DNA from: Escherichia phage JLBYU43
Strand: one strand, 5' to 3'
Sequence record: NC_105512.1
Length of the DNA: 64,000 nucleotides
The notes under the pieces: model-generated
What the model saw: only the letters and a program-made list of their open reading frames with translations
Databases searched by the model: none
What the model was told of the DNA's origin: nothing
In this document: in pieces, positions 19,559 to 41,575 of the stretch
How the letters are laid out: every line of letters starts with the position of its first letter
Numbering within the stretch: position 1 is the first letter of the stretch
Position numbers and translations under genes: made by a program

Positions 19559-19972
19559 TTAAACTAGTTCGACATGACCGCCATCATAGGTACCACGTTT
19601 TATTTCATCGTGATAATCTCCCGAAGCATCCCAATCAGCACCAAAACGAAGTTTAATGCCTAGTTCTTTACCTGCTTGTTCAAAAGCCTTTTTAACTGCC
19701 CAAAATGCTTCTAAGTCATTCCAATCAATTTTGCCATTAATGTATGGAGCAAAATCAAGGGCATCTCCAGTAATATGCTTACTTTTACTAGGGTCTTTTA
19801 AAAATGAAGTACCATTAGCAATATTCTGGGCACTTTGTGCTACTGTACGAATACCCTGTACGATCGTGAAATCATACGGGGATAATTCTAAAGCTCTACG
19901 AGCTACTTTTTGTAGCTCTGGCTTAACAGTAGCTAATTGTTTTTCGCTATTTTTACCAAATTTAAAACTCAT
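19559..19972 (-). CDS. lys: endolysin, L-alanyl-D-glutamate peptidase (M15-like)
   Basis: 137 aa; H...D...H zinc-ligand pattern (SKHITGDALDF, DGGHVE); sits just downstream of a holin-like gene. Confidence 0.75.
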   Translation of the reverse strand: MSFKFGKNSEKQLATVKPELQKVARRALELSPYDFTIVQGIRTVAQSAQNIANGTSFLKDPSKSKHITGDALDFAPYINGKIDWNDLEAFWAVKKAFEQAGKELGIKLRFGADWDASGDYHDEIKRGTYDGGHVELV

Positions 19973-20625
19973 ATTGATCTACCTAAAGATCTCTGTTGTG
20001 GGGAACAGAGCTTTGTTAAATACTCGTTAAATTTCTCAGAATCGGCTGCATCTACAGGATTATCTTTCCAAGCAATACCAATATATCCAGCATAGATATT
20101 GTTTAGATTGAAATATGGACAAGTGTATATGTAATTAAAAGTAACGTTCTTAAACGCAGGTATATTTAACCCCATGTATTTATTTACTTTTACACTTAAA
20201 TCCGATGCGTAGTTAAAGCCGTCTAAGTGACGTCTATATAGCTCAGACGTCTTATTTACCGCTTTATCGGCCAAGTCAGCCCTATCTAATTGCGCATTGC
20301 TTTCCCATGCAATAATGTTAGAATAATCATTAATGGCATCGGGTTTATACTTGACTACAAAAACAGCATCCGCACCCGTTTGGGAAAAAAGCACCATGCT
20401 CTTTTCTCTAGCTACGTTAGGAAAATTACTTATCCTTTGAGTTTGAACATCCTGTAGAACCGCAGACGTGGAGAAAGTCTTTAAGAATGACATCACCTCA
20501 CTAGTATTACTAACAAATAAGAAAATAATGACAGCAACTAAGATAGTTAGCAGACGTTTAAGAAGCGATGCTGGATCTTTCGCTTCTTGGAGCAGTACCG
20601 TTAATAATTGTAAGAACTTTTCCAA
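19969..20625 (-). CDS. putative holin
   Basis: 218 aa with a TM segment, start/stop overlap with the endolysin gene. Confidence 0.55.
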   Translation of the reverse strand: MEKFLQLLTVLLQEAKDPASLLKRLLTILVAVIIFLFVSNTSEVMSFLKTFSTSAVLQDVQTQRISNFPNVAREKSMVLFSQTGADAVFVVKYKPDAINDYSNIIAWESNAQLDRADLADKAVNKTSELYRRHLDGFNYASDLSVKVNKYMGLNIPAFKNVTFNYIYTCPYFNLNNIYAGYIGIAWKDNPVDAADSEKFNEYLTKLCSPQQRSLGRSI

Positions 20626-21393: not shown

Positions 21394-22143
21394 TTATCCA
21401 ACTAGTGGTTCTAGCTCTAAGTCACAGAAGTTATAAACTTCTAGTTTAAGGTTATTGATACCATCGAATTTATTAACTAATTCGTGAGTAATATATTTTG
21501 CAGGAATACCACTTTCAGATGGATGATCTGATTTAATAGTGAACTTCTGCTCAGCGGGTACTACATTTACTATCAAAGAATCCATATCTAGAGTATTGGT
21601 TTCCATAATTAGCTCTCCCTCATTGGGAAAACGCACATCGGTAACGATTGCGACGTCTGGGTCGTCTTTATCGATGGATTGCTCCAGAATTATGAGCCAA
21701 ATGCGTTCATGCACCAGCTGCCTTCCCAACTCAGTACCTACGAGCTGTAGCATTTTTCTTGGGGAGATAAATACGCTATACAGCGCATCATCAGCTTGCC
21801 CAATTAACTGCTGAGGATCAAGGTATTTTCCTTCAAAAATAGGCCAAACGTACGAGAAGTCCTCAAACTTATCGATACCATACTTAAACCATACGTCTCT
21901 AGCTCGCTCCAGCTGAGATTGTGTGACCGTAAACCATTGGTCAATCTCCTTTCCCCTGCGCTCTCCTAGAAACTCTGGAGTTACACCGAGGATTACGGAT
22001 GCAAGTTCATAAACGGGCTTAGCAAAACTATAACGACGAGAAAAACACGTTGGATACGTGTCATTACACCAATCGATAATTAATTTTGCAACGGTATCTT
22101 TTCCCGAACCAGCTTCACCATGTAAACCGACTAATACTGACAT
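21394..22143 (-). CDS. dnk: deoxynucleoside monophosphate kinase
   Basis: P-loop GLHGEAGSGKDT at the N-terminus; ~250 aa as for T5 Dnk. Confidence 0.75.
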   Translation of the reverse strand: MSVLVGLHGEAGSGKDTVAKLIIDWCNDTYPTCFSRRYSFAKPVYELASVILGVTPEFLGERRGKEIDQWFTVTQSQLERARDVWFKYGIDKFEDFSYVWPIFEGKYLDPQQLIGQADDALYSVFISPRKMLQLVGTELGRQLVHERIWLIILEQSIDKDDPDVAIVTDVRFPNEGELIMETNTLDMDSLIVNVVPAEQKFTIKSDHPSESGIPAKYITHELVNKFDGINNLKLEVYNFCDLELEPLVG

Positions 22144-22496
22144 TAATCTTTCCTATTGTTAATTGGTGGATAATATACTAAACAACGTTTTTCTTGCAAA
22201 TCTTGACGATAGAAGCAAACCATACTTGTCAGTCGTGAAATATAAGAGTAAACTGCTTCCTCGCATTTTGCTTTTGCATTCCAATCTTTGTAAGGTACAA
22301 CAACTACTACGCCATCTTCACCATTTGTAGCTAATTTCTTTTCGAATTTGAAATCAAAACTACACGGCTGAAGTCCTTTAGGCCAATCTACATGGGCTTG
22401 CTTTAACTCATGGGATGGCTCCGGTTTTATTTCTTCTGCACAGCCTGTGATTGTGATTGCGGCTGCAAGCAGTACTCCAAGTTTCCAGTTAAACAC
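22143..22496 (-). CDS. putative lipoprotein
   Basis: signal peptide with lipobox ITGC. Confidence 0.5.
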   Translation of the reverse strand: MFNWKLGVLLAAAITITGCAEEIKPEPSHELKQAHVDWPKGLQPCSFDFKFEKKLATNGEDGVVVVVPYKDWNAKAKCEEAVYSYISRLTSMVCFYRQDLQEKRCLVYYPPINNRKD

Positions 22497-22870
22497 GCTA
22501 ATCTTTCCTCGAACTCTTTATTCTGCTTTTTAGCAATTAATGTTACCAATCCAGGCTTTGCAGCGATAATATCTTGACGACTAAGAGCTTTATCTAACTG
22601 CTTAATCTTTTTGTCTAGATCTGCTTGCGAAATATTATTCATTGTAAAATACTGGTTCATTCGAGTCTCACGAAGTTCACTCTCAGTTTTCACTTTATTA
22701 AGAGAAGTCTCTAGAGTGGAGATCTTTTTAGTCGCAACTGCAAGATCTCCCGCTAAAGTTTCGACCTTATTTACTAAATGATAAGCACCGAATCCGATAC
22801 CTATCGCAAGACCAGCTCCCAGGATATACCACTTACCTTGCCATAGAGAACTAATAAAGTTTTTTATCAT
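22427..22870 (-). CDS. membrane-anchored coiled-coil protein
   Basis: 147 aa with an N-terminal TM helix. Confidence 0.45.
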   Translation of the reverse strand: MIKNFISSLWQGKWYILGAGLAIGIGFGAYHLVNKVETLAGDLAVATKKISTLETSLNKVKTESELRETRMNQYFTMNNISQADLDKKIKQLDKALSRQDIIAAKPGLVTLIAKKQNKEFEERLACLTGNLEYCLQPQSQSQAVQKK

Positions 22871-29311: not shown

Positions 29312-29318
29312 ATTCGTT

Positions 29319-29394: not shown

Positions 29395-29400
29395 ATTGTT

Positions 29401-29476: not shown

Positions 29477-29484
29477 ATAATTCT

Positions 29485-29685: not shown

Positions 29686-29710
29686 ATTTTATTTCCTATT
29701 TAAGTTAACT

Positions 29711-30350: not shown

Positions 30351-30362
30351 GTATAAATTGTT

Positions 30363-30456
30363 TGGCGGAAAAGATGGGAGTTGAACCCATAAGGCGGTAT
30401 TGCTACCACTCAACCGATTTCCAATCGGGTTTAGTCACCAGTCTATTTGCTTTTCC
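30363..30456 (-). tRNA. tRNA-Ser (GGA), long variable arm
   Basis: perfect acceptor GGAAAAG/CTTTTCC, CCA encoded, loop TTGGAAA. Confidence 0.5.
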
Positions 30457-31027
30457 GTTGTTCTGTTAATACTTTTGGGCTTAATCCGGTTAGTTTAGTA
30501 TATCGTCTACGTAAAGTGGACTCTGATACTTCTAGATCTTTAGCTGCCTTAACCCACCCCATTAATAATACCTTTTCAGTTATGTCTTCTAAGGACAATT
30601 CTGGTTTTATTAACTTTCCTGTAGGTTTTGGCTTACAATTTGTACATGTTACTGATCTCTGAAGCATTAGATTTCCACATAAGGGGCAAGGTACTCTACT
30701 ATCAGACCATCCATTATCTTTATTAGTTTTCTTCTGATGTTCTATTTTTGATAAAACTTGAAGATTATCTTTAGATAGATTCAGCCTATCTCTATCCTTG
30801 TGATCTACTTCTAATTCAGGGTCAAATAGATTATATAAGTCCCCAAATACATGAGAAATAATTCGGTGTATAAGTACCGAAGTTTGCTTACCATTTATCT
30901 GTAATTTTACAGCAGGGTATCCATCAACTATATATCTTGATAAAATTTTATTAGTAAATGTAGATAACACATCCCCTGTTTCATTTACTAAATACCCTGG
31001 TGCATCTTTTATTGGTACAAACTGCAT
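30443..31027 (-). CDS. HNH homing endonuclease
   Basis: NUMOD4-like N-terminus, HNH motif EVDHKDRDRLN, Cys-rich zinc ribbon. Confidence 0.7.
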   Translation of the reverse strand: MQFVPIKDAPGYLVNETGDVLSTFTNKILSRYIVDGYPAVKLQINGKQTSVLIHRIISHVFGDLYNLFDPELEVDHKDRDRLNLSKDNLQVLSKIEHQKKTNKDNGWSDSRVPCPLCGNLMLQRSVTCTNCKPKPTGKLIKPELSLEDITEKVLLMGWVKAAKDLEVSESTLRRRYTKLTGLSPKVLTEQRKSK

Positions 31028-31043
31028 ACATTACCCTATAAGT

Positions 31044-31128
31044 TGGTGGGGCTAGGGAGACTCGAACTCCCACGCATTTAAGCTACGGAATCTAAGGCCG
31101 TATTGTCTACCAGTTCCAGCATAGCCCC
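31044..31128 (-). tRNA. tRNA-Leu (UAG), long variable arm
   Basis: perfect acceptor GGGGCTA/TAGCCCC, CCA encoded, loop CTTAGAT. Confidence 0.55.
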
Positions 31129-31133
31129 AAATT

Positions 31134-31207
31134 TGGTGGAGAAAGAGGGAGTTGAACCCTCGTCTTCTGCGTGCAAAGCAGATGTTCTACCATTAAACTA
31201 TATCCCC
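31134..31207 (-). tRNA. tRNA-Ala (UGC)
   Basis: G3-U70 wobble (Ala identity element), loop TTTGCAC, CCA encoded. Confidence 0.6.
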
Positions 31208-31467
31208 AAATTCTTTAGTTTACTAAGGCTATTAGCTCGGTGTGCGTATTACCCTCAGACATTAGCCAGTAGAGGATAACCGCTCTTCACAAACCCGATA
31301 CACTATTCAGTTGCCGCTGAATCTAGTGGACTAATCTAGAACTTCTCCCGAGTCGTAGGGATTGTGCTTTTTGGCAGCCAGTCCTAGGTCGAGCTAATAC
31401 CTTAGTGAACTTTGATGAGGATTTCTCCTCATCAATTTATATAAATATTATAACAAGAAATTAAACA

Positions 31468-31827
31468 TTAAGCAAGTACATTTTTGCAGATTTCTTGTAT
31501 TTCCTTAACGTCACTAACGAAAAGGTAATCAGAGCTTCCAGAGTGCATACTCTGCATAACCACACCACCATCCGGTGCATCTTCTTTCAAAGTAATACCT
31601 AACCAGAACTTGGCAAAACTAGGTGTTACCTCACCTTGACTTGCCTTGAACACATCGCCTTCTGTGATCTCTTGACCAGTGGAGAGTCCCATGTATGGTA
31701 CGTTCAGATCAATATCTTTGTAGAACTCAGCTAGATCTTGCTCGAAATCCCAACCTTTAGAGATAGCGAACTCCATTGTTACATGACCGAAATAGCCTTG
31801 AACCTTGCTTGATAATTGCATTTGCAA
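31468..31827 (-). CDS. hypothetical protein
   Basis: 119-aa ORF. Confidence 0.5.
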   Translation of the reverse strand: MQMQLSSKVQGYFGHVTMEFAISKGWDFEQDLAEFYKDIDLNVPYMGLSTGQEITEGDVFKASQGEVTPSFAKFWLGITLKEDAPDGGVVMQSMHSGSSDYLFVSDVKEIQEICKNVLA

Positions 31828-31846
31828 TTCCTTATTTTGAGTTAAT

Positions 31847-31920
31847 TGGTACTCGGTGATAGAATCGAACTATCGCAACCGCCGTGTAAAGACGGGGTTC
31901 TCCCATTAAACTAACCGAGC
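31847..31920 (-). tRNA. tRNA-Val (UAC)
   Basis: T-arm GATAG-TTCGATT-CTATC, loop TTTACAC, CCA encoded. Confidence 0.55.
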
Positions 31921-31924
31921 AATT

Positions 31925-32002
31925 TGGTGGATTGCCTGGGATTCGAACCCAGAACTGACGGATTAAAGGTCCGCTACTCTTATCCAGTTGAGCTAGCAAT
32001 CC
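31925..32002 (-). tRNA. tRNA-Lys (UUU)
   Basis: perfect acceptor GGATTGC/GCAATCC, loop CCTTTAA (C at position 33), CCA encoded. Confidence 0.5.
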
Positions 32003-32466
32003 AATTTTTCTACTAATAATTTAAAAGCATCTAGTACAGGTACTTCAAACCATTCTCCAGATACTATATAATCTTTAAGAAGATTATGTAATTCTTTCTC
32101 TGTACGTCTTTTATCCGACGAAAATCTGAAATGGTATAGCTTGTAGTCTCTATTAGGTGAATAAGTTTGATAACTTGCTAACCTCTCATTCACATCTATA
32201 GTCATACCTATTTTATACATGCCTGGCCATGCTGGATTACCAATTACATATACAAAACCTTCCGTTATAGGTATTTTATGCTCCCTTTTATACTTTAAGA
32301 GATTTAAGGCTGCCATTCGATAACAGAATCTAAACTCTGAAGTTTTTAACTTACCTTCTTTACCTGAAATTTCGTTATATTTGCTCATATAAGCTCTTAT
32401 GAGCTTATCATCTATAATGAAGTTATCAGGAAGGTTTAAGGCAGATAAAACTTTATTAATTAGCAT
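31993..32466 (-). CDS. T5orf172-domain protein (GIY-YIG-like)
   Basis: motif VYVIGNPAWPGMYKIGMT...ERL...YQTYSP. Confidence 0.55.
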   Translation of the reverse strand: MLINKVLSALNLPDNFIIDDKLIRAYMSKYNEISGKEGKLKTSEFRFCYRMAALNLLKYKREHKIPITEGFVYVIGNPAWPGMYKIGMTIDVNERLASYQTYSPNRDYKLYHFRFSSDKRRTEKELHNLLKDYIVSGEWFEVPVLDAFKLLVEKLDC

Positions 32467-32641
32467 AGACTTCCTTAATAGAATAAACTTTTAAGTAAGG
32501 GTGATTAATACCAAATTCCGCCATCACTTCGTTTTCATCTTTACCGTAATGGGCTAGTGGATACTTCTTACGATCTTTGCTAGAACGCAGATCACTTACT
32601 TTTAAACGAAATAATTTCATTTCGAAATCCTTCTATTAAAT

Positions 32642-32719
32642 TGGAAGCGGGTGTAGGAATCGAACCTACCTCTTTCTAGCTTATGAGACTAGCGATCTCT
32701 ACCAGAGATCTAACCCGCA
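32642..32719 (-). tRNA. tRNA-Met (CAU)
   Basis: loop CTCATAA, T-arm GTAGG-TTCGATT-CCTAC, CCA encoded; 1-72 pair mismatched. Confidence 0.5.
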
Positions 32720-32725
32720 ATTGTT

Positions 32726-32803
32726 TGGTCTCCGTGGGAGGATTTGAACCCCCGACCCTACCGCCCCAAACGGAACGCTCTGGCCAAACTGAGCTACACG
32801 GAG
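32726..32803 (-). tRNA. tRNA-Pro (UGG)
   Basis: perfect acceptor CTCCGTG/CACGGAG, loop TTTGGGG, CCA encoded. Confidence 0.6.
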
Positions 32804-33119
32804 AATATTCTTTGTTAACTCACTTTATAAGATATATTATACAGAGAATTAAGTGAAATAGCAAATGAATTTTTAATAAATTTACTTATTGCGTAGGCCA
32901 CCTGGAGGGTTCAAGCCCCACGGCTGACAAAGAAGTTTGCGAGACTTCTCTTAAATGCCAGAATAGACCCGCCGATCTATCGGAACCTACATAATAAGTA
33001 AACTTTCGTTTACCTACACCTACCTGGTCGGGAGGATTTTCAGCGACTAGAACCGGCCGGAAACTCATCGCCTTGTTTACCCTGTAGTCCCACTATAAGT
33101 GACGCGACCTACAAAGATT

Positions 33120-33193
33120 TGGTGCGGTCGGAGGGAATCGAACCCTCAACTTCTGGTTGGCAACCAAAAATTATACCTTTTAACTACGAACGC
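33120..33193 (-). tRNA. tRNA-Gly (GCC)
   Basis: T-arm GAGGG-TTCGATT-CCCTC, loop TTGCCAA, CCA encoded. Confidence 0.5.
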
Positions 33194-33406
33194 ATAATGA
33201 GTCAATCTAGGTAGGACTTGAACCTACTATCACTTGTGCGGATTTACGAGAACCATTCTTTCACTCGAATCGAACGAGCTTCTACCCTCGGCAAGCTGGT
33301 GTCCCCTCTCCACCACGCTAGAATGATAATTAATGCCTGCTCCTTTGAATCAAGAAGTCCACCCCGGACTTTGGGTCTTTGCAGTACATCACGCTGCTCT
33401 GATGTT

Positions 33407-33483
33407 TGGTACACCCACTAGGACTTGAACCTAGAACCCTCCGCTTAAGAGGCGGTAGCTCTAACCAATTGAGCTATGGATGT
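33407..33483 (-). tRNA. tRNA-Lys (CUU)
   Basis: acceptor ACATCCA/TGGGTGT, loop CTCTTAA, CCA encoded. Confidence 0.5.
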
Positions 33484-33489
33484 ATAATT

Positions 33490-33542
33490 TGGCGGTACTA
33501 AGGGTAATCGAAACCCTACCTCTCCCGTGACAGGGGAGTACC
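33490..33542 (-). tRNA. compact tRNA-like element without D-arm (anticodon loop GUC, Asp-like)
   Basis: 53 nt: acceptor-like stem, hairpin CTCCC-CTGTCAC-GGGAG, T-arm AGGGT-TTCGATT-ACCCT, CCA encoded; no room for a D-arm. Confidence 0.3.
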
Positions 33543-33574
33543 ATTACCAAGCCAGCCCCGATCGCATAATTTAT

Positions 33575-33760
33575 TTACTCAGCTTTGAGTTTTTCGATAG
33601 CTTCCTCAACCTCTTTTAGAGCTTCACGACGCTCTACTTGACCTTGAAGTTCTTCAAGAAGTTCAGCTTTCAGAGCCTTAATAATATTACCACGAACCTT
33701 AATATTATTAATCATATTATCACGATCAGCTTCTAGTCGAGCAATTGCACGAGTTGTCAT
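33575..33760 (-). CDS. small coiled-coil protein
   Basis: 61-aa charged ORF. Confidence 0.35.
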   Translation of the reverse strand: MTTRAIARLEADRDNMINNIKVRGNIIKALKAELLEELQGQVERREALKEVEEAIEKLKAE

Positions 33761-33787
33761 ATCTATTTCCTCAGTTGTTAGTGAAAT

Positions 33788-33873
33788 TGGCGGGCCGTGT
33801 AGGAGTTGAACCTACTTTATCCTTGCGGATACGGATTAACAGTCCGGCGCTTAAACCGTTCAGCCAACGACCC
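33788..33873 (-). tRNA. tRNA with anticodon GUU (Asn-type loop) and long variable arm
   Basis: 86 nt; acceptor GGGTCGT/ACGGCCC, loop CTGTTAA, variable hairpin ATCC-GCAA-GGAT, CCA encoded. Confidence 0.5.
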
Positions 33874-34025
33874 TAAATTTATATTGCTGACTAGGATTTT
33901 CACCTAGACGGAGTTAGCACCGTAGCGTGTAGCGGCATACCTCTCCAAACCGTGCCTCATCTTTCAATTACTGAGGCAGTGTTCCTACGCGTGCCTGAAC
34001 TGTTTTAACAATTCTTTCAGCAAAT

Positions 34026-34101
34026 TGGACGACCGCATGAGATTCGAACTCACATAAAAAGGATTTGCAATCCTTCGCCTAAGCCATTCAGCCAACAGTC
34101 G
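34026..34101 (-). tRNA. tRNA-Cys (GCA)
   Basis: loop TTGCAAA on a perfect AAGGA/TCCTT stem, discriminator U, CCA encoded. Confidence 0.6.
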
Positions 34102-34282
34102 ATTTATCTTGTTTTTCGAGATCTTCAAATTCTAGATTTATAGAATGTCCTATGGACCTAGCATAATAGCTATCTCCAGCATCAGTATCTCTTTCAATTT
34201 GGTACAACCTGTACGCAACGATCGTACCTCTTCTCCTTTTCAGGGAGATACTAATCCTTCTCAGTTAAAGTTGCATATTATC

Positions 34283-34353
34283 TGGCAGGGGTAAAGGTAT
34301 TCGAAACCTTTTCATGGGTTTTGGAGGCCCACTAGCAACCTATGCGTACCCCA
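34283..34353 (-). tRNA. tRNA-Trp (CCA)
   Basis: 3' end CCCCTGCCA as in E. coli tRNA-Trp, loop CTCCAAA. Confidence 0.55.
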
Positions 34354-34362
34354 ATTATTAAT

Positions 34363-34437
34363 TGGCACACCCACGGAGAATTGAACTCCGATTCTCAGAT
34401 TGAAATCCTGATGTCCTAACCATTAGACGATAGGTGC
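34363..34437 (-). tRNA. tRNA-Glu (UUC)
   Basis: Glu-type D-arm GTCTAATGGTTAGGAC, loop ATTTCAA, CCA encoded. Confidence 0.55.
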
Positions 34438-34445
34438 ATTAATTT

Positions 34446-34526
34446 TGGTGGGGGATGGAGGACTCGAACCTCCGCGTGGTATACCCGGTCTACAGCCAGG
34501 CGCCGTCGCCACTGAGCCAATCCCCC
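34446..34526 (-). tRNA. tRNA, probable anticodon GUA (Tyr)
   Basis: perfect acceptor GGGGGAT/ATCCCCC and T-arm, CCA encoded; anticodon arm fold ambiguous. Confidence 0.45.
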
Positions 34527-34632
34527 ATATTTGAATGAAAAGTAAGTCGGTTAAACTCAAAGTGGAATATTTCAGGAAATCCTGACTTTACCCCTAAAAG
34601 CAACTCGCTTAATTACTTCTCATTCAGATATG

Positions 34633-34661
34633 TTTCCAAAGTAGATAACTATTATATCAAG
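34633..34661 (-). promoter_or_regulatory. sigma70 promoter upstream of the tRNA cluster (TTGCTC-17-TATAAT)
   Basis: consensus -10 and 17-bp spacer on the minus strand; a 13-bp-stem hairpin lies immediately upstream at 34662-34701; ~110-nt leader before tRNA-Tyr. Confidence 0.5.
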
Positions 34662-34715
34662 TTTTATGGCACTGAGCAAGTCAGATTTTAAAGAACTTGC
34701 TCAGTGCTATATCAG

Positions 34716-35009
34716 TTAATCAAATGAAGGAGTGACTTTCAAAGTGAATGGAAGTTCGAATACCTCTTCACCTTCATCAGTAACAGTGACTACTCGACCC
34801 TCTAGATTATTCATGCTGATTTCAACATCAGCCGTAGCATCAGGAGCCATACCAGCCTCAATACATTGAGCTTTGATCTCTGGAAGAAGTTCTACATTGT
34901 AGAAATAAAGCCACTCGATCTCACCTTCCCAACCACCCCAGGATTTACATACTGAGCTTTCAATACCAGTTGCTGTAACACGTTTTGACATTCTGATTCC
35001 TCTCATCAA
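34716..35009 (-). CDS. hypothetical protein
   Basis: 97-aa ORF. Confidence 0.5.
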   Translation of the reverse strand: MMRGIRMSKRVTATGIESSVCKSWGGWEGEIEWLYFYNVELLPEIKAQCIEAGMAPDATADVEISMNNLEGRVVTVTDEGEEVFELPFTLKVTPSFD

Positions 35010-35080
35010 TTTATATAACTATTATATCAGAAATTTAAGGCAAAAGGCAAGTACATTTTTAAAAATTCTGTTTGGAGGAG

Positions 35081-35287
35081 TTAAAGACCGGATTCATCAG
35101 CCAGATCTAGACCAATAAGGGTGATTGCCATGATTGCAGCAGCCTGTTCTTTTTCACTCACATCTTTAGCAGACGCGATAATCTTTTCAAATTGTGATTT
35201 AAAATCTGCTACTTCAGCTTCTAAACCAGCTTCAGCAATAATGCCTTTCACCATAATACGCTGCGTCATAATTTCAGGATTTGCCAT
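35081..35287 (-). CDS. hypothetical protein
   Basis: 68-aa ORF. Confidence 0.4.
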   Translation of the reverse strand: MANPEIMTQRIMVKGIIAEAGLEAEVADFKSQFEKIIASAKDVSEKEQAAAIMAITLIGLDLADESGL

Positions 35288-35462
35288 TTGTTTTCTCCAG
35301 TTTCATTTTTAGTATTTTGCAAACAAAGTCAATATCTTCATCCGTGCCTAGATCTCTATCTTCAAGGGTTGCCTTGAAATTTTTTGTTAGTTCCATAAGA
35401 ATAACTTCCCTGGAACGACGTGTTGGCGGAGGTGGATGTCTATACATCTTAATTCCTTAATT

Positions 35463-35537
35463 TGGTGGGTCGGAGGAGAATCTAACTCCTACTCGTTAGC
35501 TTATGAGGCCACCGCTTTAACTTTAAGCTACCGACCC
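35463..35537 (-). tRNA. tRNA with anticodon CAU (Met/fMet/Ile2)
   Basis: perfect acceptor GGGTCGG/CCGACCC, loop CTCATAA, CCA encoded; anticodon stem weak. Confidence 0.5.
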
Positions 35538-35543
35538 TATGTT

Positions 35544-35632
35544 TGGAGGAAGAAGTGGGAATCGAACCCACAAGGCTATATTTCAAACTGACAGATTAGC
35601 AATCTGCTGCAATACCGTTATGCTATTCTTCC
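35544..35632 (-). tRNA. tRNA-Ser (GCU), long variable arm
   Basis: perfect acceptor GGAAGAA/TTCTTCC, loop TTGCTAA, CCA encoded. Confidence 0.55.
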
Positions 35633-35653
35633 GAATTTATAAGATATATTATA

Positions 35654-36172
35654 TTAGAAATTTAGCTTCATAGCAAGAAAATTTTTCAAGTTTTCGGTAG
35701 ACATCTCATCCACATCTACAGGAGAAACAAATCCATTTAATTGTTTAGCAAATTTTTCACCTGCAGGATCATTATCCCCAACAGCTACCAATTTAAAAGG
35801 TAGTAATTTCAATTGCTTTAACAACGCTTTTCCAGGGGAAGAACCCAACATTGCTAGGGCTGGATAACCAGCATTATGTAATGCAACTGCCTTAAATACA
35901 GATTCAGCAATCAATACTACTTTTTCATCTCCATTGAGAGTTTCTAGTCCCCATACACACTGGGTAGTAGAATAAGTAAAATATTTAGCTTCAAAGGGAC
36001 ACTTACCATGACCTTTTGGAGCAGAAGGATTATAAGTTTGATAGCCCCTCAACATCCCAGAGAAATCATATAACGGGACTGTTAGCCATCCTTCCGGACT
36101 TAACCAGCAATGATATTTTTCTGTATCAAATCCCCTAGATAGAAGGTGCTGTGTTAGCTCATCAACACTCAT
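35654..36172 (-). CDS. Toprim-domain protein (primase-like)
   Basis: conserved Glu (LIAES) and DxD (VAVGDNDPAG) typical of DnaG-type Toprim. Confidence 0.45.
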   Translation of the reverse strand: MSVDELTQHLLSRGFDTEKYHCWLSPEGWLTVPLYDFSGMLRGYQTYNPSAPKGHGKCPFEAKYFTYSTTQCVWGLETLNGDEKVVLIAESVFKAVALHNAGYPALAMLGSSPGKALLKQLKLLPFKLVAVGDNDPAGEKFAKQLNGFVSPVDVDEMSTENLKNFLAMKLNF

Positions 36173-36210
36173 ATTTGATCTCCTAGTTAGTTTTATAAAT
36201 ACATTATATA

Positions 36211-36242
36211 GAAAAGCCCGCGCTCTCGGAGGAAACGCGGGC
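36211..36242 (-). terminator. rho-independent terminator
   Basis: AGCCCGCG/CGCGGGCT stem followed by a U-tract on the minus strand. Confidence 0.5.
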
Positions 36243-36267
36243 TTGTTTCGAAGATTACGTGTAACTA

Positions 36268-37284
36268 TTACTTATTACGCATATCCATAATCATCTGGCC
36301 ATCATAACCAGTACCTACAACAGTCTGAGGAACGCCACCCTGATATTTTTCAGCGCGTTTCATATCAACTTCCAGCTGCTTCCAACGAATCATTTCAGGA
36401 GTAATGGTACGTTGCAGAGCGGCGTTAGCTTCAGCTTCTTTCTTAGCTGCGTACAGTTTAGCATCTGCGTCACGTTCGTTAGCTACTGCCATATTTTCAC
36501 GAGCAGAACGATCAGCTTCAGCTTGCTTAACTTTCTGCTGTGCTTCTTGTTCAACACGAGCTAGTTCAGCTTTTGCAGCGTTAACTTGTTCTTCACGAAC
36601 TTTTGTGTTTTGTACCTGTTCCATGATTACCGGTGGCAGAGTAATATCCTGAAGGAATACTTGCTTAACGGTGTAACCATAAGGACGCGCGTACTCTTCT
36701 ACTTCTTGCTGAATAGCGGTTTGCAGTTGAGCCTGAATCTTAGCGTCGAACAGATCTTGTGCTTTTGGTACAGACTTACCAAACTCACGAATCGTAGACA
36801 GCATCTTCTCTTCAACGTACTTGTTCAGAGCTTGATCCTGAGTACCTGCGTTAATACGGTTAATCGGTGCCTTAGAACCATCAAACTGCAACATAACAGT
36901 CAAGTCAACAGTGGATTTAAACTTATCCTGGCTAGGAACCTGAAGTTTATCTAATTTTACAGCAATATCTTTTGTACTAAAAGTATCGAAAGATGCAAAC
37001 GGGTTTACAAGATGGAAACCAGGCAATACTGGATTAGGATCTACTTTACCCAGAAATGTTTGGGTTTTAACCGTACCATCAGAAACAATAGTATATGAAT
37101 TAAAAGCTAGAATCAAGCCTGCTAAACCAACTACAGCACCAATACCCCAACGTTTAATAGTATATGAATTAAAAGCTAGAATCAAGCCTGCTAAACCAAC
37201 TACAGCACCAATACCCCAACGTTTAATAGTACGAATTACTTTCTGCTCAGAAGTCAGTTCTTTCATATTTTTAGTATTAAACAT
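36268..37284 (-). CDS. SPFH/band-7 (prohibitin, HflC-like) membrane protein
   Basis: N-terminal TM anchor, SPFH core, C-terminal coiled coil; contains an exact 69-bp tandem duplication. Confidence 0.7.
   Translation of the reverse strand: MFNTKNMKELTSEQKVIRTIKRWGIGAVVGLAGLILAFNSYTIKRWGIGAVVGLAGLILAFNSYTIVSDGTVKTQTFLGKVDPNPVLPGFHLVNPFASFDTFSTKDIAVKLDKLQVPSQDKFKSTVDLTVMLQFDGSKAPINRINAGTQDQALNKYVEEKMLSTIREFGKSVPKAQDLFDAKIQAQLQTAIQQEVEEYARPYGYTVKQVFLQDITLPPVIMEQVQNTKVREEQVNAAKAELARVEQEAQQKVKQAEADRSARENMAVANERDADAKLYAAKKEAEANAALQRTITPEMIRWKQLEVDMKRAEKYQGGVPQTVVGTGYDGQMIMDMRNK
37087..37231. repeat. 69-bp perfect tandem duplication (2.1 copies)
   Basis: 37088-37156 is identical to 37157-37225; in frame, duplicating the TM segment of the SPFH protein. 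Confidence 0.85.
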
Positions 37285-37318
37285 ATGTTTCCTTTGTTTT
37301 AGTTACAGTTAATAAAAT

Positions 37319-37393
37319 TGGCCGAGGTGACAGGATTCGAACCTGCATAAAGGAATTTAGAAGACTCCTGCCTATCCCTTAGACTACACCCCG
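37319..37393 (-). tRNA. tRNA-Arg (UCU)
   Basis: T-arm GCAGG-TTCGAAT-CCTGT, loop CTTCTAA, CCA encoded. Confidence 0.55.
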
Positions 37394-37995: not shown

Positions 37996-38478
37996 CTAAC
38001 CAAAGTTAGTAAATTCTTTATGTAAGGATTCTCTTAATATCTTAGAGGCCTCGAAAGCCTCTTCCGCAGTTTTAAACCCTCTTTTACTGTAATTTTTTCC
38101 TTCATGTCTTACTTGGTATCTCCAGGAAGAGCCTTCCCAACTTACTCCTTTGTACCCAGAAGTATTATTGCATTGTTGGTTTCTATTCGCATTGTTTTGC
38201 GATCTAGAGGCGTCCCTTAGATTATTTTTCCTATTATTTCTAGGATTAGTATCCTTATGATCTACTTCTTCAGGCCTATATCCATAGTACATAATAAACA
38301 ATAAGACATGCAGTTGATAGGTGTCGCCCTGAAATCCCACATCTGGGTGTGATTTCTTATTATTGGCACAACACTCTTTCAAACCTTTCTTTGTTTTCCT
38401 ATATAGTACCCCATTATCAGGATCAGCTACAAAATATTTTTCAAGTATTTCTTTAGTAGGGTATTCTTTCCTTTTCAT
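37996..38478 (-). CDS. HNH endonuclease with AP2-like domain
   Basis: HNH motif (EVDHKDTNPRNN) plus C-terminal YKGVSWEGSSWRYQV. Confidence 0.65.
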   Translation of the reverse strand: MKRKEYPTKEILEKYFVADPDNGVLYRKTKKGLKECCANNKKSHPDVGFQGDTYQLHVLLFIMYYGYRPEEVDHKDTNPRNNRKNNLRDASRSQNNANRNQQCNNTSGYKGVSWEGSSWRYQVRHEGKNYSKRGFKTAEEAFEASKILRESLHKEFTNFG

Positions 38479-39156: not shown

Positions 39157-39204
39157 TTTATACAGTTATTATACAGAATTTTAAGGCTTAAAGCAATTGA
39201 ATTT

Positions 39205-39651
39205 TTAAATTTTCTTAGTCACAGGCTTATAGAACGTGTGGCCTTGAATTTTAGTTGTTTTCTTGAACGTTTTCGTCCAGTACGGCTTTTCTTTACCACT
39301 ATGGAAGTATAACGCTCCATATGTTGGATCATGTGGTAAATCAACGTAGTATATCACTCTAGCTACATTCTTAGCAGTTTGCCAAGCCGCATCGGTTTTA
39401 TCAACTTTTGGTCTCTTAGATACCCAAGAGAACTGGTTAGACTGATATACTACTTTACAGTAAGAATCCGGGAATGTGCCAGAGTTAACACGGTTTTTAG
39501 TGACCTGTGCAACTGCAACCATTCCCTTCGTGCCCTCACCTCGGCTCTCAAAATAGACATTTTTTGCAATGCAATCAATCTGTTTAGCGTCGTAGGTAGC
39601 ATGACTCTGAAAGCTAAAGGTTAGGGCAGCCATTAGTAAGACTGCCTTCAT
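39205..39651 (-). CDS. secreted cell-wall hydrolase (SleB-like)
   Basis: signal peptide plus Hydrolase_2-like core (NVYFESRGEG...GALYFH). Confidence 0.6.
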   Translation of the reverse strand: MKAVLLMAALTFSFQSHATYDAKQIDCIAKNVYFESRGEGTKGMVAVAQVTKNRVNSGTFPDSYCKVVYQSNQFSWVSKRPKVDKTDAAWQTAKNVARVIYYVDLPHDPTYGALYFHSGKEKPYWTKTFKKTTKIQGHTFYKPVTKKI

Positions 39652-39663
39652 TCTTTTTACTCC

Positions 39664-40485
39664 TTAAAATAGATCATATTCTAATCTATTGGGATTTTCT
39701 CGGTATCCATAAGACGTAAGGGTTCCTCTCATGTACTCTGCGTCAACAGGATTAGATGTTACTAGAACCACTTTTAGTGGTCTTTGACCTAAAAATAGTA
39801 TATGATCTAATAAATCTTTTCCTTGTACCTCTGGATCCCCTAAATCTGAGTCCATAAATAAATAGGATCCTGTGAAACTAAACATATCTGATAGTTCCAG
39901 CGCACCTATAACTGTACGACAAATAATGGACATTTCAGGTAGATCTCTAACATCGTCTATTAGAATATTGGTCTGCTTCCCAATTTCTGCATTACATAAA
40001 CCATTTACTAGTTTTTCTCTTTCCCCTTTAGCTTGTTCGAAAGTGGTGAAGCCAGGAGATACGAAAAACTTTCCACCTAATGTAATGCTATACGCAAAAC
40101 CCTCGGAGAGGAGTTCTACACCTACGGTTTTATCAGTATTAATCCTATTTAACTTAAAATTTGTCTCTCTTAGATTAAGAATTCTGTTATCCCACGGTAT
40201 GGTATTTATATGGTCGATCATATCAGGTGGCTCTTCACCATAATGGAGCAACCACGCTATTCGGTGCCCATAAATAATTGTGGGTTTATTACCTAAGAGC
40301 AAGCTAACTCTGATGTACCCATTAGAGTTCTTACTACATATTTCTCTCCCAGCATATAGGGTGTGCCAAGTTTTATTCTTGTATTTATTAGGCTTATAAA
40401 ATAATTTACCTGTATAAGGATTATATTCTATAATTTCTCGAATATAATCTATATATGATAGTATTTGTTTTTGTAATTTACCCAT
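39664..40485 (-). CDS. HNH homing endonuclease
   Basis: HNH motif (HRIAWLLHYG...IDHIN...N). Confidence 0.65.
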   Translation of the reverse strand: MGKLQKQILSYIDYIREIIEYNPYTGKLFYKPNKYKNKTWHTLYAGREICSKNSNGYIRVSLLLGNKPTIIYGHRIAWLLHYGEEPPDMIDHINTIPWDNRILNLRETNFKLNRINTDKTVGVELLSEGFAYSITLGGKFFVSPGFTTFEQAKGEREKLVNGLCNAEIGKQTNILIDDVRDLPEMSIICRTVIGALELSDMFSFTGSYLFMDSDLGDPEVQGKDLLDHILFLGQRPLKVVLVTSNPVDAEYMRGTLTSYGYRENPNRLEYDLF

Positions 40486-40936
40486 AATAGCCTCGTCTCA
40501 TCAATTTAAAAATATATTATATAGAAAACTAAACTAATTAGCAAATACATTTTTAAATTGAGAGACTAGTAAACCGATAAACAGCCTAGAGGCGCCACAG
40601 GCCATATCTTATGAGCCATGTACCTTTGATCTAGGGTTTGAATCATCAACGAATACTTTGCATCTTTTAGCTTTAGAAGGTTAGAAGTTTGAGTGCTTTT
40701 AACTTTTCAGCTTTCATACTTGAGCGTTGATCTTTGAAGTTGTGTTGGTACTACCAACGACGTCTTGTTTTATTTTGACAGATGCAACATCTGCCGAAAA
40801 ATAAATTAAGATAATCTCCAATAGATTATACTGTATCTAGTATGGTCAGCGGTCTTATTTAACCTCGTATTTCAACCGCTGCTGCGAGGTAAGATGCTTG
40901 GGCTTTCGTCTACCGATTTACTAGTCTTTTAAATTA

Positions 40937-41575
40937 TTACTCTACTTCGATAAAAGTAGAGGCGTTGGACTCAGACAGAACAAAGTCAACGTTGGTTGCA
41001 AAGTCCTGGTATTCTTCGTCGTGTTGCTTGATCAGCTTTTCCAGCTCCAGCGGATCGATCAGGAACGGAGTGTTCTTGAGTTCCAGCAGGTTAAGCTGCA
41101 TCTTAACTTCATCCTCGGAAGTCTTCTTGTCGCGGGTAGCCATGGTATCCTGCAAACGCTCATACTTAGCATCAAACTGAGCTTTCTGAGTGTTAAACTT
41201 AACAGTAGCAGCATGGAACTGCTTACGCATGTTAGCCAGCAACTGAGCTTTGAGTTCCATAGAACGCTTAGCTTCGATTGCTTCCGCAACAGTCATAGAG
41301 CGCGAACCGATCTCTACAACAGTTTCAGCATTGCTCTTGATCAGCGCAGCTTTCAGACGATCACGCTGGGACATCATATCCAGCAGAGACTGGAAATCAG
41401 TCTTAATACGGGTAGACAGATCGTCTACTTCGATTGCAGCGCCAACTACAACCTGGTTCTTGTCCTTACCTTCACCAACAGCGATCAAAAGCTGTTGTTC
41501 AGTAGCTTTACGGATTTTAGCTTCCAGAGACTTGATAGTTGCCAGAGCACGAGTTTTAGAGATACGAGTAGTCAT
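40937..41575 (-). CDS. hypothetical protein
   Basis: 212-aa ORF in a locally GC-richer segment. Confidence 0.5.
   Translation of the reverse strand: MTTRISKTRALATIKSLEAKIRKATEQQLLIAVGEGKDKNQVVVGAAIEVDDLSTRIKTDFQSLLDMMSQRDRLKAALIKSNAETVVEIGSRSMTVAEAIEAKRSMELKAQLLANMRKQFHAATVKFNTQKAQFDAKYERLQDTMATRDKKTSEDEVKMQLNLLELKNTPFLIDPLELEKLIKQHDEEYQDFATNVDFVLSESNASTFIEVE

What the first reader, a model, noticed from the sequence alone, without database searches (positions are those of the whole stretch)
39205..39651. Secreted SleB-like cell-wall hydrolase separate from the holin-endolysin pair
The phage has an endolysin-holin pair at 19.5-20.6 kb and, 20 kb away, a second peptidoglycan hydrolase with a cleavable signal peptide. 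A Sec-exported hydrolase in an early operon might act in superinfection exclusion or cell-wall remodelling rather than lysis.
Basis: partly seen in the sequence, partly recalled or inferred. Interest (0 to 1): 0.4.

Follow-up and report, generated by a model that had tools for sequence, protein, structure and literature searches.

The report
Exported SleB-like wall hydrolase of T5-like phage
The gene is real and encodes a small cell-wall-cutting enzyme with an export signal, but it is the well-conserved and already annotated T5.083 gene of T5-like phages; its role has not been tested experimentally in any paper I found.

Summary
Window 39205-39651 (minus strand) encodes a 148-aa protein with a full-length Pfam Hydrolase_2 (SleB/CwlJ) match (E 3.6e-26). 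Its predicted fold matches the Bacillus SleB catalytic domain, and the catalytic-motif glutamate (E35) is invariant. The N-terminus is a typical Sec signal peptide (MK, 12 hydrophobic residues, S-H-A|T), and its pattern is kept in all T5-like orthologs. A complete lysis cassette lies 17-20 kb away: T-type holin, M15 endolysin, i- and o-spanin.

The window is an Epseptimavirus, 99.8% identical to Salmonella phage 1586. The gene is the ortholog of T5.083 and is about as widespread in T5-like genomes as the holin. Databases already call it "cell wall hydrolase/SleB/endolysin", and papers noted it in 2012 and 2024.

The added findings are modest. The protein belongs to a large subfamily of exported SleB-like enzymes from Proteobacteria that carries an invariant cysteine pair absent from spore SleB.

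The function is untested. The most likely role is an accessory, holin-independent periplasmic glycan-strand cleaver. Nothing supports superinfection exclusion. Interest is low.

The parts
39205..39651 (-). CDS of the SleB-like cell-wall hydrolase precursor (148 aa plus stop); ortholog of phage T5 gene T5.083
   Evidence: ORF list; Pfam Hydrolase_2 at E 3.6e-26; 100% identical to the Salmonella phage 1586 'endolysin' and 86% identical to T5.083
39598..39651 (-). Codons 1-18: predicted Sec signal peptide MKAVLLMAALTFSFQSHA, with predicted signal-peptidase I cleavage after Ala18
   Evidence: n/h/c architecture and a conserved [S/A/V]-x-A site in all T5-like orthologs. The homology to the SleB catalytic domain starts at residue 20. 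Cleavage is inferred, not predicted by a trained tool.
39208..39597 (-). Codons 19-148: mature catalytic domain (130 aa, 14.9 kDa, pI 9.7, lysine-rich C-terminus)
   Evidence: Hydrolase_2 covers residues 38-141; Foldseek match to 4F55/4FET; physicochemical values
39547..39549 (-). Codon GAG for Glu35, the putative catalytic glutamate in the Y-F-E-S-R-G-E motif
   Evidence: Aligned to the first Glu of GESRGE in SleB 4F55/4FET; invariant in 150/150 family representatives; codon read
39571..39573 (-). Codon for Cys27, one half of the conserved cysteine pair
   Evidence: Invariant in the T5-like set; present in 149/150 representatives and 80/80 proteobacterial relatives; Leu at this position in Bacillus SleB
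39457..39459 (-). Codon for Cys65, the other half of the conserved cysteine pair
   Evidence: Same calls as Cys27. The single representative that lacks Cys27 also lacks Cys65. Ser at this position in Bacillus SleB. A disulfide is inferred; no distance was measured.
39660..39663 (-). Shine-Dalgarno GGAG, 8 nt upstream of the ATG and directly after the stop codon of the upstream gene
   Evidence: Sequence read
39664..40485 (-). Upstream gene, apparently co-transcribed: an HNH endonuclease domain fused to a cREC_REC domain. The C-terminal 100 aa are the ortholog of T5.084.
   Evidence: Pfam HNH_3 plus cREC_REC; BLASTP against T5.084 gives 51% identity over residues 173-271
40516..40544 (-). Sigma-70-type promoter (TTGCTA-17-TATAAT) upstream of the two-gene unit
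   Evidence: Consensus scan; 92% identical over the region to the promoter annotated upstream of T5.084 in the T5 record. Function in this phage is inferred.
39168..39196 (-). Next promoter (TTGCTT-17-TATAAT), 9 nt downstream of the hydrolase stop. It marks the end of the unit and is equivalent to T5 promoter P-D/E 33.
   Evidence: Alignment to the annotated T5 promoter; hexamers read
19559..20625 (-). Context: the canonical lysis pair, a T-type holin (19969-20625) and an M15 peptidase endolysin (19559-19972)
   Evidence: Pfam and PHROG hits
22143..22870 (-). Context: overlapping i-spanin (22427-22870) and o-spanin (22143-22496, lipobox T-I-T-G-C)
   Evidence: PHROG 739 and 812 'Rz-like spanin'; translations

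Best explanation
The gene is the T5.083 ortholog of an Epseptimavirus, a T5-like phage. It encodes a minimal exported muralytic enzyme.

Proposed mechanism:
- An 18-residue Sec signal peptide is removed after Ala18. This releases a 130-aa, strongly basic SleB/CwlJ-fold domain into the periplasm.
- There the two invariant cysteines (C27, C65) probably form a stabilising disulfide.
- Glu35 catalyses cleavage of the glycan strands. By homology to SleB, the reaction would be that of a lytic transglycosylase.

The gene is transcribed from a T5 early-type sigma-70 promoter as the second gene of a two-gene unit. It lies outside the holin/endolysin/spanin cassette, so the enzyme reaches its substrate without the holin.

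The most likely role is accessory. The enzyme pre-loads the periplasm with a glycan-cleaving activity. That activity complements the cytoplasmic, holin-released L-Ala-D-Glu peptidase, making wall breakdown faster or more robust. It is dispensable under laboratory conditions.

Shown: the ORF, domain, fold, catalytic motif, signal-peptide features, conservation and genomic placement.
Inferred: export and cleavage, the disulfide, the bond cleaved, early timing and the contribution to lysis.
For: - Domain and fold: Hydrolase_2 full-length match; SleB structures 4F55/4FET matched by sequence and by fold at TM 0.72.
- Catalytic residue: E35 aligns with the GESRGE glutamate and is invariant in 150/150 representatives.
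- Relevance to Gram-negative walls: a SleB-fold T6SS effector is toxic in the E. coli periplasm, causes rounding and bursting, and is inactivated by a Glu-to-Gln change (PMC11148199). A signal-peptide-bearing SleB-like homolog from phage CB7 was toxic when expressed in E. coli, reported as data not shown (PMC7344957).
- Export: the signal-peptide pattern is conserved across diverged orthologs. 141/150 representatives and 66/80 proteobacterial chromosomal relatives carry an N-terminal hydrophobic segment, and some have lipoboxes.
- Cysteine pair: present in 149/150 and 80/80 sequences, with no sequence carrying only one of the two. Spore SleB has Leu and Ser at these positions.
- Accessory status: a complete lysis cassette lies elsewhere in the window. 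The Shivani genome announcement lists holin, soluble endolysin and spanins as the T5-like lysis cassette and does not include the SleB-like gene (PMC4342426).
- Dispensability: T5.083 scored 'Not Fit' in the T5 CRISPRi-ART knock-down screen (PMC11879866 supplement). A truncated copy exists in the complete genome of Klebsiella phage vB_Kpn_3.
- Retention under selection: about 517 phage records carry a copy at >=60% identity, against about 525 for the holin.
- Promoter and synteny with the T5 early region.
Against: - No activity, localisation or timing data exist for this protein or for T5.083 in the literature I could search.
- Bacillus SleB acts on muramic-delta-lactam-containing spore cortex (my own knowledge). 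Activity of this domain on ordinary E. coli or Salmonella peptidoglycan is therefore not guaranteed by homology.
- An active periplasmic hydrolase made from early times should threaten premature lysis. No restraining mechanism was identified.
- The CRISPRi-ART screen also scored the known endolysin and several virion and replication genes as 'Not Fit'. It has low sensitivity and says little either way.
- The disulfide is inferred only from conservation. I could not measure the Cys-Cys distance because model coordinates are not exposed.
Confidence: 0.55

Rival explanations
1. Non-lytic wall remodelling. The exported enzyme acts during the latent period rather than at lysis. It could loosen or turn over peptidoglycan so the infected cell can enlarge, change envelope properties or release muropeptides. 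This would make it an auxiliary host-modifying gene.
For: The gene lies in the early region behind an early-type promoter, far from the lysis cassette. Export does not depend on the holin. A homolog in Pseudomonas phage PAK_P3 (gp151) was proposed to explain the accumulation of cell-wall precursors during infection (PMC4933390). In rV5-like phages the homolog is translationally coupled to rIIA, again outside a lysis cassette. The bacterial relatives are chromosomal genes of Proteobacteria and are presumably housekeeping wall enzymes.
Against: There is no direct evidence. T5's holin and endolysin also lie in the same 'early' strand block, so position alone does not separate lysis from non-lysis functions. 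No phenotype was seen on knock-down.
Confidence: 0.22
2. Signal-anchor-release (SAR) type enzyme. The N-terminal segment is not cleaved. It tethers an inactive enzyme to the inner membrane until the holin depolarises the membrane, as in P1 Lyz or phage 21 R.
For: The N-terminal hydrophobic segment is followed directly by the catalytic domain. SAR endolysins are common in phages of Gram-negative hosts, and signal-peptide predictions on such lysins are often read that way (PMC8223927). This model would explain why there is no premature lysis.
Against: The hydrophobic core is only 11-15 residues in most T5-like orthologs, which is short for a membrane span. It is Leu/Phe-rich rather than Gly/Ala/Ser-rich (39% G+A+S+T). 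A conserved [S/A/V]-x-A signal-peptidase motif follows it 5-6 residues later. The N-terminal segment contains no cysteine that could cage the active site as in P1 Lyz.
Confidence: 0.1
3. Superinfection exclusion or protection of progeny. The periplasmic enzyme alters the wall so that later-arriving phages cannot deliver their DNA.
For: Only early, holin-independent delivery to the periplasm, which is where T4 Sp acts (my own knowledge).
Against: Known exclusion proteins inhibit or block entry rather than degrade the wall. Degrading peptidoglycan should help entry, not hinder it. [quoted passage not shown] Pfam, PHROG and NCBIfam gave no match to exclusion families.
Confidence: 0.04
4. Inactive or vestigial enzyme. 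The gene is a wall-hydrolase relic, or merely a peptidoglycan-binding protein, with no muralytic activity on the host wall.
For: Spore SleB needs a cortex-specific substrate (my own knowledge). No fitness effect was seen on knock-down. An occasional truncated copy exists.
Against: The catalytic motif and about 20 other positions are invariant or nearly so across representatives of a family with tens of thousands of clusters. The gene is kept in about 98% as many T5-like records as the holin. SleB-fold proteins are toxic in the E. coli periplasm in a Glu-dependent way.
Confidence: 0.07

Closest known systems
Phage T5 gene T5.083 and its orthologs in Demerecviridae, annotated 'cell wall hydrolase', 'SleB', 'spore cortex-lytic enzyme precursor' or 'endolysin'
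   Same: Same gene. It is 86% identical to T5.083 and 100% identical to the Salmonella phage 1586 protein. The flanking genes (T5.084-like upstream, T5.082 and T5.081 downstream) and both flanking promoters are the same.
   Different: In this phage the upstream T5.084 homolog carries an in-frame N-terminal HNH endonuclease domain. The first 10 residues of the signal peptide differ in sequence but not in character.
Bacillus spore cortex-lytic enzyme SleB, catalytic domain (PDB 4F55, 4FET); a lytic transglycosylase
   Same: The catalytic-domain fold (Foldseek TM 0.72, 30-31% identity) and the x-E-S-R-G-E catalytic motif.
   Different: There is no N-terminal peptidoglycan-binding domain. The protein scores 56 bits against a 236.5-bit cut-off for the SleB equivalog model TIGR02869. 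It has a Cys27/Cys65 pair where SleB has Leu and Ser. The host makes no spores, so the substrate must be vegetative Gram-negative peptidoglycan.
Exported single-domain SleB-like 'cell wall hydrolases' of Proteobacteria (chromosomal Hydrolase_2 proteins)
   Same: 35-46% identity over the whole domain. Both cysteines are present in 80/80 loci, and most carry an N-terminal signal or anchor. The phage protein is best seen as a member of this diderm subfamily.
   Different: The bacterial proteins usually have a 20-90-residue linker between the signal or anchor and the domain. The phage version joins the signal peptide directly to the domain. To my knowledge these proteins are also uncharacterised.
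SleB-like hydrolases with signal peptides in other large virulent phages of Gram-negative hosts (Vequintavirinae CB7_83 and CR3_087, rV5-like phages, Phapecoctavirus, PAK_P3 gp151, PA5oct gp368)
   Same: The same domain with an N-terminal signal peptide. They are encoded in addition to another lysin and often away from a recognisable lysis cassette.
   Different: Only 31-39% identical. The rV5-like clade has a different cysteine arrangement and lacks Cys65. In CB7 a candidate holin overlaps the gene, so there it may be the main endolysin.
Sec-exported and SAR endolysins (Oenococcus phage fOg44 Lys44; P1 Lyz; phage 21 R)
   Same: Holin-independent delivery of a muralytic enzyme across the inner membrane by the Sec system. 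This is a functional analogy drawn from my own knowledge.
   Different: The catalytic folds are unrelated. Those enzymes are the phage's only endolysin and sit in the lysis cassette. The SAR criteria are not met here.
T6SS effector T6EC3 (SleB-fold toxin)
   Same: A SleB-like fold acting in the periplasm of E. coli, with a required catalytic glutamate (PMC11148199).
   Different: It is delivered by a type VI secretion system as the C-terminal domain of a larger effector and is paired with an immunity protein. No immunity-like partner was identified next to the phage gene.

Membership tests
Pfam PF07486 Hydrolase_2 (SleB/CwlJ catalytic-domain family) | Match to the family profile above the gathering score, over the full profile | tested here: met
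   92.2 bits against a cut-off of 27; profile positions 1-100 of 100, residues 38-141
Pfam PF07486 Hydrolase_2 (SleB/CwlJ catalytic-domain family) | SleB catalytic-domain fold | tested here: met
   AF2 model with pLDDT 82. Foldseek against the PDB gives 4F55 and 4FET as the top hits, probability 1.00, TM 0.72-0.73 normalised to the target, and no other significant hit.
Pfam PF07486 Hydrolase_2 (SleB/CwlJ catalytic-domain family) | Catalytic glutamate in the E-[AS]-R-G-E motif | tested here: met
   E35 aligns with the first Glu of GESRGE in 4F55/4FET and is invariant in 150/150 representatives. That this Glu is the catalytic one in SleB rests on PMC11148199 and my own knowledge of the 2012 structure papers.
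Pfam PF07486 Hydrolase_2 (SleB/CwlJ catalytic-domain family) | Muralytic (lytic transglycosylase) activity | not testable with these tools
   Needs a zymogram or muropeptide analysis
Spore cortex-lytic enzyme SleB in the strict sense (NCBIfam TIGR02869 equivalog) | Score above the equivalog cut-off | tested here: not met
Spore cortex-lytic enzyme SleB in the strict sense (NCBIfam TIGR02869 equivalog) | N-terminal peptidoglycan-binding domain ahead of the catalytic domain | tested here: not met
   Hydrolase_2 is the only Pfam domain. The domain starts 2 residues after the predicted signal-peptide cleavage site.
Spore cortex-lytic enzyme SleB in the strict sense (NCBIfam TIGR02869 equivalog) | Acts on muramic-delta-lactam spore cortex in a spore-forming host | not testable with these tools
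   The hosts of the closest phages are Salmonella and Escherichia, which do not form spores. Substrate specificity was not assayed.
Canonical holin-dependent phage endolysin | Cytoplasmic protein without an export signal, released by the holin | tested here: not met
   A conserved Sec-type signal peptide is present
Canonical holin-dependent phage endolysin | Encoded in the lysis cassette next to the holin or spanins | tested here: not met
   The holin/endolysin pair lies at 19.6-20.6 kb and the spanins at 22.1-22.9 kb. This gene lies at 39.2-39.7 kb, among an HNH/cREC_REC gene, DUF7616 and a YqeY-like gene.
SAR (signal-anchor-release) endolysins | Uncleaved, weakly hydrophobic N-terminal transmembrane segment rich in Gly/Ala/Ser and long enough to span the membrane | tested here: not met
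   The core is 12 residues (11-15 in most T5-like orthologs), Leu/Phe-rich, and followed by a conserved [S/A/V]-x-A cleavage motif. This is a sequence-rule test only.
Sec-exported (signal-peptide) lysins | N-terminal tripartite signal peptide with a signal-peptidase I site | tested here: met
   MK / AVLLMAALTFSF / QSHA|T; the pattern is conserved in orthologs. Actual processing was not tested.
Sec-exported (signal-peptide) lysins | Demonstrated contribution to host lysis | not testable with these tools
   The only indirect data are from the T5.083 knock-down, scored 'Not Fit' in a low-sensitivity screen
Superinfection-exclusion proteins (T5 lpp/T5.158, T4 Sp/Imm) | Sequence or family relationship to a known exclusion protein | tested here: not met
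   Pfam, PHROG and NCBIfam returned only hydrolase or endolysin families

The most novel reading that the evidence does not exclude
The enzyme is not a lysis protein. It would be an early, Sec-delivered lytic transglycosylase that T5-like phages use to re-engineer the host sacculus during the latent period, for example to allow cell enlargement or envelope changes that raise burst size. The same would then hold for rV5-like, PAK_P3-like and other large virulent phages that carry signal-peptide SleB-like genes outside their lysis cassettes. This would define a widespread class of phage-encoded host-wall remodelling genes.
Probability: 0.15. Interest if true: 0.5.

Novelty: already known. Interest (0 to 1): 0.2.

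Why it matters
If the accessory-lysin reading is right, T5-like phages attack the wall by two routes and at two bond types. One is a holin-released peptidase. The other is a Sec-exported glycan cleaver. This matters for understanding how robust lysis is and for choosing phage enzymes as antibacterials.

The protein is small, basic and naturally folds in the periplasm, so it is a reasonable candidate enzybiotic scaffold. Its proteobacterial relatives form a large family of wall enzymes that, to my knowledge, is uncharacterised.

The gene's existence, domain and separation from the holin are already recorded in genome annotations and in several papers. The finding therefore adds little beyond pointing at an untested gene.

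Tried and rejected
- Spanin-substitute idea. One paper on a T5-like phage reported no spanin (PMC12630848), so I asked whether the hydrolase might compensate. I rejected this: the window has clear i- and o-spanin genes at 22143-22870, and other T5-like papers report spanins.
- LysSTG2. This characterised lysin comes from the T5-like phage STG2, so I checked whether it was this protein. It is the M15 peptidase, not the SleB-like gene.
- Bacterial relatives, first scan. The scan of bacterial genomes with patterns from the T5-like alignment found nothing. A second scan with a broader alignment found at least 591 proteobacterial loci.
- Disulfide. I could not measure the Cys27-Cys65 distance because model coordinates are not exposed to the scripting tool. 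The disulfide therefore rests on co-conservation only.
- SleB structure papers. I could not open the two primary papers to confirm the catalytic-residue numbering, and the cap on papers ended further reading.
- Intein annotation. The upstream gene is annotated 'intein-containing' in phage HildyBeyeler. I looked at it but did not adopt the annotation. The inserted segment would start with Lys and be followed by Asn, not the usual Cys/Ser/Thr nucleophiles (reading and sequences; canonical intein rules are my own knowledge).
- Promoter and terminator scan. It found no more sites than shuffled sequence would give. The promoter assignments rest on alignment to the annotated T5 promoters instead.
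Full report
**What the window is.** A 2-kb stretch around the finding is 99.8% identical to Salmonella phage 1586 and 99.7% identical to phage KKP_3831. It matches 447 phage records, almost all of them T5-like phages of Salmonella and Escherichia in the family Demerecviridae. Phage 1586 is classified in the genus Epseptimavirus. The left end of the window carries ORFs of the same size and position as T5 genes A1 and A2. A block of 23 tRNA genes lies at 27.6-37.4 kb. The window is therefore roughly the left half of a T5-like genome.

**Checking the observation.** The reported coordinates are exactly an ORF on the minus strand, 39651 down to 39205, encoding 148 aa.
- A GGAG ribosome-binding site lies 8 nt upstream of the ATG, immediately after the stop codon of the preceding gene.
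- The protein matches Pfam Hydrolase_2 (PF07486, 'Cell Wall Hydrolase') over the entire profile, with 92.2 bits and E 3.6e-26.
- It matches PHROG 938 'endolysin' at E 1.6e-29.
- The only solved structures it matches by sequence are the catalytic domains of Bacillus cereus and B. anthracis SleB (4F55, 4FET; E about 1e-9). In that alignment the phage motif Y-F-E-S-R-G-E lies on Y-G-E-S-R-G-E.
- An AlphaFold2 model built from 30 orthologs has mean pLDDT 82. Its only significant Foldseek hits in the PDB are those same SleB domains, with probability 1.00 and TM 0.72.

The 'SleB-like cell-wall hydrolase' part is therefore solid.

**The signal peptide.**
- The N-terminus MKAVLLMAALTFSFQSHA|TYD has one positive charge, a 12-residue hydrophobic core (mean Kyte-Doolittle 2.25) and Ser/Ala at positions -3/-1.
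- The homology to SleB begins at residue 20.
- Among T5-like orthologs the sequence of this segment drifts. Examples are MLKVLLLLATTISSLPAYA, MKAAILMISILTSFHAQA and MKITLFTVIFLFSFQSYA.
- All 13 distinct T5-like N-termini nevertheless keep the same architecture and end in [S/A/V]-x-A. Conservation of pattern without conservation of sequence is what a functional signal peptide shows.
- The core is too short and too Leu/Phe-rich for a signal-anchor-release domain, and it contains no cysteine.
- I had no trained signal-peptide predictor, so cleavage after Ala18 is an inference from the classical rules.
- The mature protein would be 130 aa, 14.9 kDa, pI 9.7, with a lysine-rich C-terminus. A survey of phage lysins reported significantly higher net charge for lysins bearing Hydrolase_2 domains (PMC8223927).

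**The separate lysis cassette.**
The holin at 19969-20625 is of the T4 'T' type (Pfam E 4.8e-113). The gene at 19559-19972 is an M15-type peptidase endolysin (phrog_465, E 4.2e-54).
- Two genes further upstream lie an overlapping i-spanin (22427-22870, N-terminal membrane segment) and o-spanin (22143-22496, lipobox T-I-T-G-C).
- The phage therefore has every component of a standard Gram-negative lysis system without the SleB-like gene.
- The Shivani genome announcement likewise lists holin, soluble endolysin and spanins as the T5-like lysis cassette. Its GenBank record annotates the gene studied here separately, as 'spore cortex-lytic enzyme precursor, SleB-like' (PMC4342426).

**Genomic setting and likely timing.**
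- The gene is the ortholog of T5.083, 86% identical. Its downstream neighbours are the same as in T5: T5.082/DUF7616 and the T5.081/YqeY-like gene.
- Upstream lies a 273-aa protein whose C-terminal 100 residues are the T5.084 ortholog (a cREC_REC domain). Its first 170 residues are an HNH endonuclease domain.
- The sigma-70-type promoter in front of that gene (TTGCTA-17-TATAAT, 40516-40544) is essentially identical to the promoter annotated in front of T5.084 in the T5 record. The promoter just downstream of the hydrolase stop corresponds to T5's P-D/E 33.
- The hydrolase is thus the second gene of a short unit in the block syntenic with T5's early genes.
- 'Early' is a positional inference, because I found no expression data. 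T5's holin and endolysin lie in the same strand block, so position alone does not separate lysis functions from others.

**Family-level findings.**
- A profile of the T5-like orthologs finds 26,858 cluster representatives at E<=1e-3 and 508 at E<=1e-30.
- In the best 150 representatives, Glu35, Asn53 and Arg54 are invariant.
- Cys27 and Cys65 are both present in 149 of them and both absent in the remaining one.
- 141 of the 150 have a hydrophobic N-terminal segment before the domain, and some have lipoprotein boxes.
- A scan of species-representative bacterial genomes found at least 591 relatives at 35-46% identity. They come overwhelmingly from Proteobacteria, such as Chromatiaceae, Rhodospirillales, Burkholderiales and Pseudomonas.
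- Of the 80 loci inspected, all 80 carry both cysteines and 66 have a hydrophobic N-terminus.
- Bacillus SleB has Leu and Ser at the two cysteine positions.
- The protein scores far below the cut-off of the true SleB equivalog model, 56 against 236.5 bits, and it lacks SleB's N-terminal peptidoglycan-binding domain.

The phage enzyme is therefore not a spore-type SleB. It is a minimal member of a large diderm subfamily of exported SleB-fold enzymes. A cysteine pair confined to exported members is most simply explained as a periplasmic disulfide. This is an inference, because I could not measure the distance in the model.

**Distribution in phages.**
- tblastn finds the protein in 1,357 phage records. 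About 517 of these are at >=60% identity (the T5-like lineage), compared with about 525 records carrying the holin at >=60% identity. The gene is thus practically a core gene of this lineage.
- More distant copies (31-39% identity) occur in rV5-like, Phapecoctavirus, PAK_P1/PAK_P3-like, Goslar-like and other large virulent phages of Gram-negative hosts.
- The rV5-like copy also has a signal peptide and is translationally coupled to rIIA.
- In Sugarlandvirus the gene stays in the same region although its immediate neighbours differ.

**What is already known.**
- The gene is annotated in hundreds of genomes as cell wall hydrolase, SleB, spore cortex-lytic enzyme precursor or endolysin.
- The AKFV33 paper (2012) listed 'cell wall hydrolase SleB' beside the lysozyme and holin in the early region (PMC3326045).
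- Guzel et al. (2024) explicitly noted that in T5-like Salmonella phages the endolysin next to the holin is an M15 peptidase, while an 'endolysin far from holin' has the SleB domain. They called for experiments (PMC11180984).
- The OSYSP and vB_Sal_S6 papers also count it as a second or third endolysin.
- For Vequintavirinae, a signal peptide on the SleB-like protein and its toxicity on expression in E. coli were reported (PMC7344957).
- I found no biochemical or genetic characterisation of T5.083 or any ortholog.

**Indirect functional evidence.**
- In the genome-wide CRISPRi-ART knock-down screen of T5, T5.083 scored 'Not Fit'. The holin scored 'Fit' and the endolysin lys 'Not Fit' (PMC11879866 supplement).
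- This is compatible with dispensability and with redundancy between the two wall enzymes. However, the screen also missed several virion and replication genes, so it is weak evidence.
- A complete Klebsiella phage genome carries a truncated copy.
- A SleB-fold type VI effector is toxic when directed to the E. coli periplasm. It causes rounding and bursting and is inactivated by a Glu-to-Gln change at the glutamate that superimposes on SleB's catalytic residue (PMC11148199). This fold can therefore attack ordinary Gram-negative peptidoglycan.

**Interpretation.** I consider the protein's identity as an exported, Glu35-dependent glycan-cleaving enzyme very likely. Its biological role is less certain.
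- The reading I favour (about 0.55) is an accessory, holin-independent muralytic enzyme. It accumulates in the periplasm and complements the peptide-bond-cleaving endolysin when the holin fires. What keeps it from lysing the cell early is unknown. Candidates are low or restricted activity, compensation by ongoing wall synthesis, or dependence on membrane de-energisation as for other secreted lysins. All three are speculative.
- The main rival (about 0.2) is non-lytic remodelling during the latent period.
- A SAR-type tethered form (about 0.1), a vestigial protein (under 0.1) and superinfection exclusion (under 0.05) are less likely, for the reasons given under each rival.

**Verdict.** It concerns a conserved, already annotated gene that the literature has already remarked on. 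The new points are that it belongs to a proteobacterial exported two-cysteine subfamily rather than to spore SleB, that the signal-peptide pattern is conserved, and that the lysis cassette elsewhere is complete. These points sharpen the description and do not change the picture. Interest is low (0.2). The remaining value is as a pointer to an easy and still unperformed experiment.

Noticed in passing
window 39664-40485 (minus strand): The gene upstream of the hydrolase is a 273-aa in-frame fusion. An HNH_3 endonuclease domain (residues about 1-170) precedes a cREC_REC domain (residues 173-271) that alone makes up T5.084 (105 aa) in phage T5. The promoter, ribosome-binding site and start codon are shared with T5.084, so the HNH module appears to be inserted right after codon 2. 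The BASEL phage HildyBeyeler annotates the equivalent gene as 'intein-containing', but the junction residues (Lys... / ...Gln-Thr|Asn) do not look like a canonical intein.
   Followed up: partly
window 37996-38478 (minus strand): A second free-standing HNH endonuclease (160 aa; HNH_3, phrog_99) lies between the YqeY-like gene (T5.081 ortholog) and the tRNA-Arg gene. At the corresponding place T5 has the 'RNAX' stable-RNA region instead.
   Followed up: no
window 27669-37393 (minus strand): A block of 23 tRNA genes, all on the minus strand. It includes three tRNA-Met(CAT) genes and pairs for Gln, Gly, Lys and Ser.
   Followed up: no
window 19559-22870 (minus strand): The lysis genes are split. 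The holin and endolysin are adjacent, but the overlapping i- and o-spanin genes are separated from them by a Clp-protease-like gene (20782-21381) and a dNMP kinase gene (21394-22143). The holin is a homolog of the T4 'T' holin.
   Followed up: partly
window 36268-37284 (minus strand): A 338-aa SPFH/Band-7 domain protein (T5.080 ortholog, phrog_200 'lipoprotein') is encoded in the tRNA region. It is another envelope-directed protein of unknown role.
   Followed up: no
window 40937-41575 (minus strand): This 212-aa gene matches phrog_1491, labelled 'tail fiber protein' (T5.085 ortholog), although it sits in the early-gene block and has no Pfam hit. The label may be an annotation artefact.
   Followed up: no
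L085 2402-2902 (Escherichia phage Mangalyan, rV5-like): The rV5-like SleB-like hydrolase has its own signal peptide (VKIKIFAIILSAFLSLPVVA|A). It overlaps the start of rIIA. Its cysteines are placed differently: no Cys65 equivalent, and cysteines at 'HTC' and 'LAC'.
   Followed up: no
protein P0030 (Klebsiella phage vB_Kpn_3, 112-kb genome): This ortholog is truncated or frameshifted after about residue 78 in an otherwise complete T5-like genome. It is either a natural loss-of-function allele or a sequencing error.
   Followed up: no
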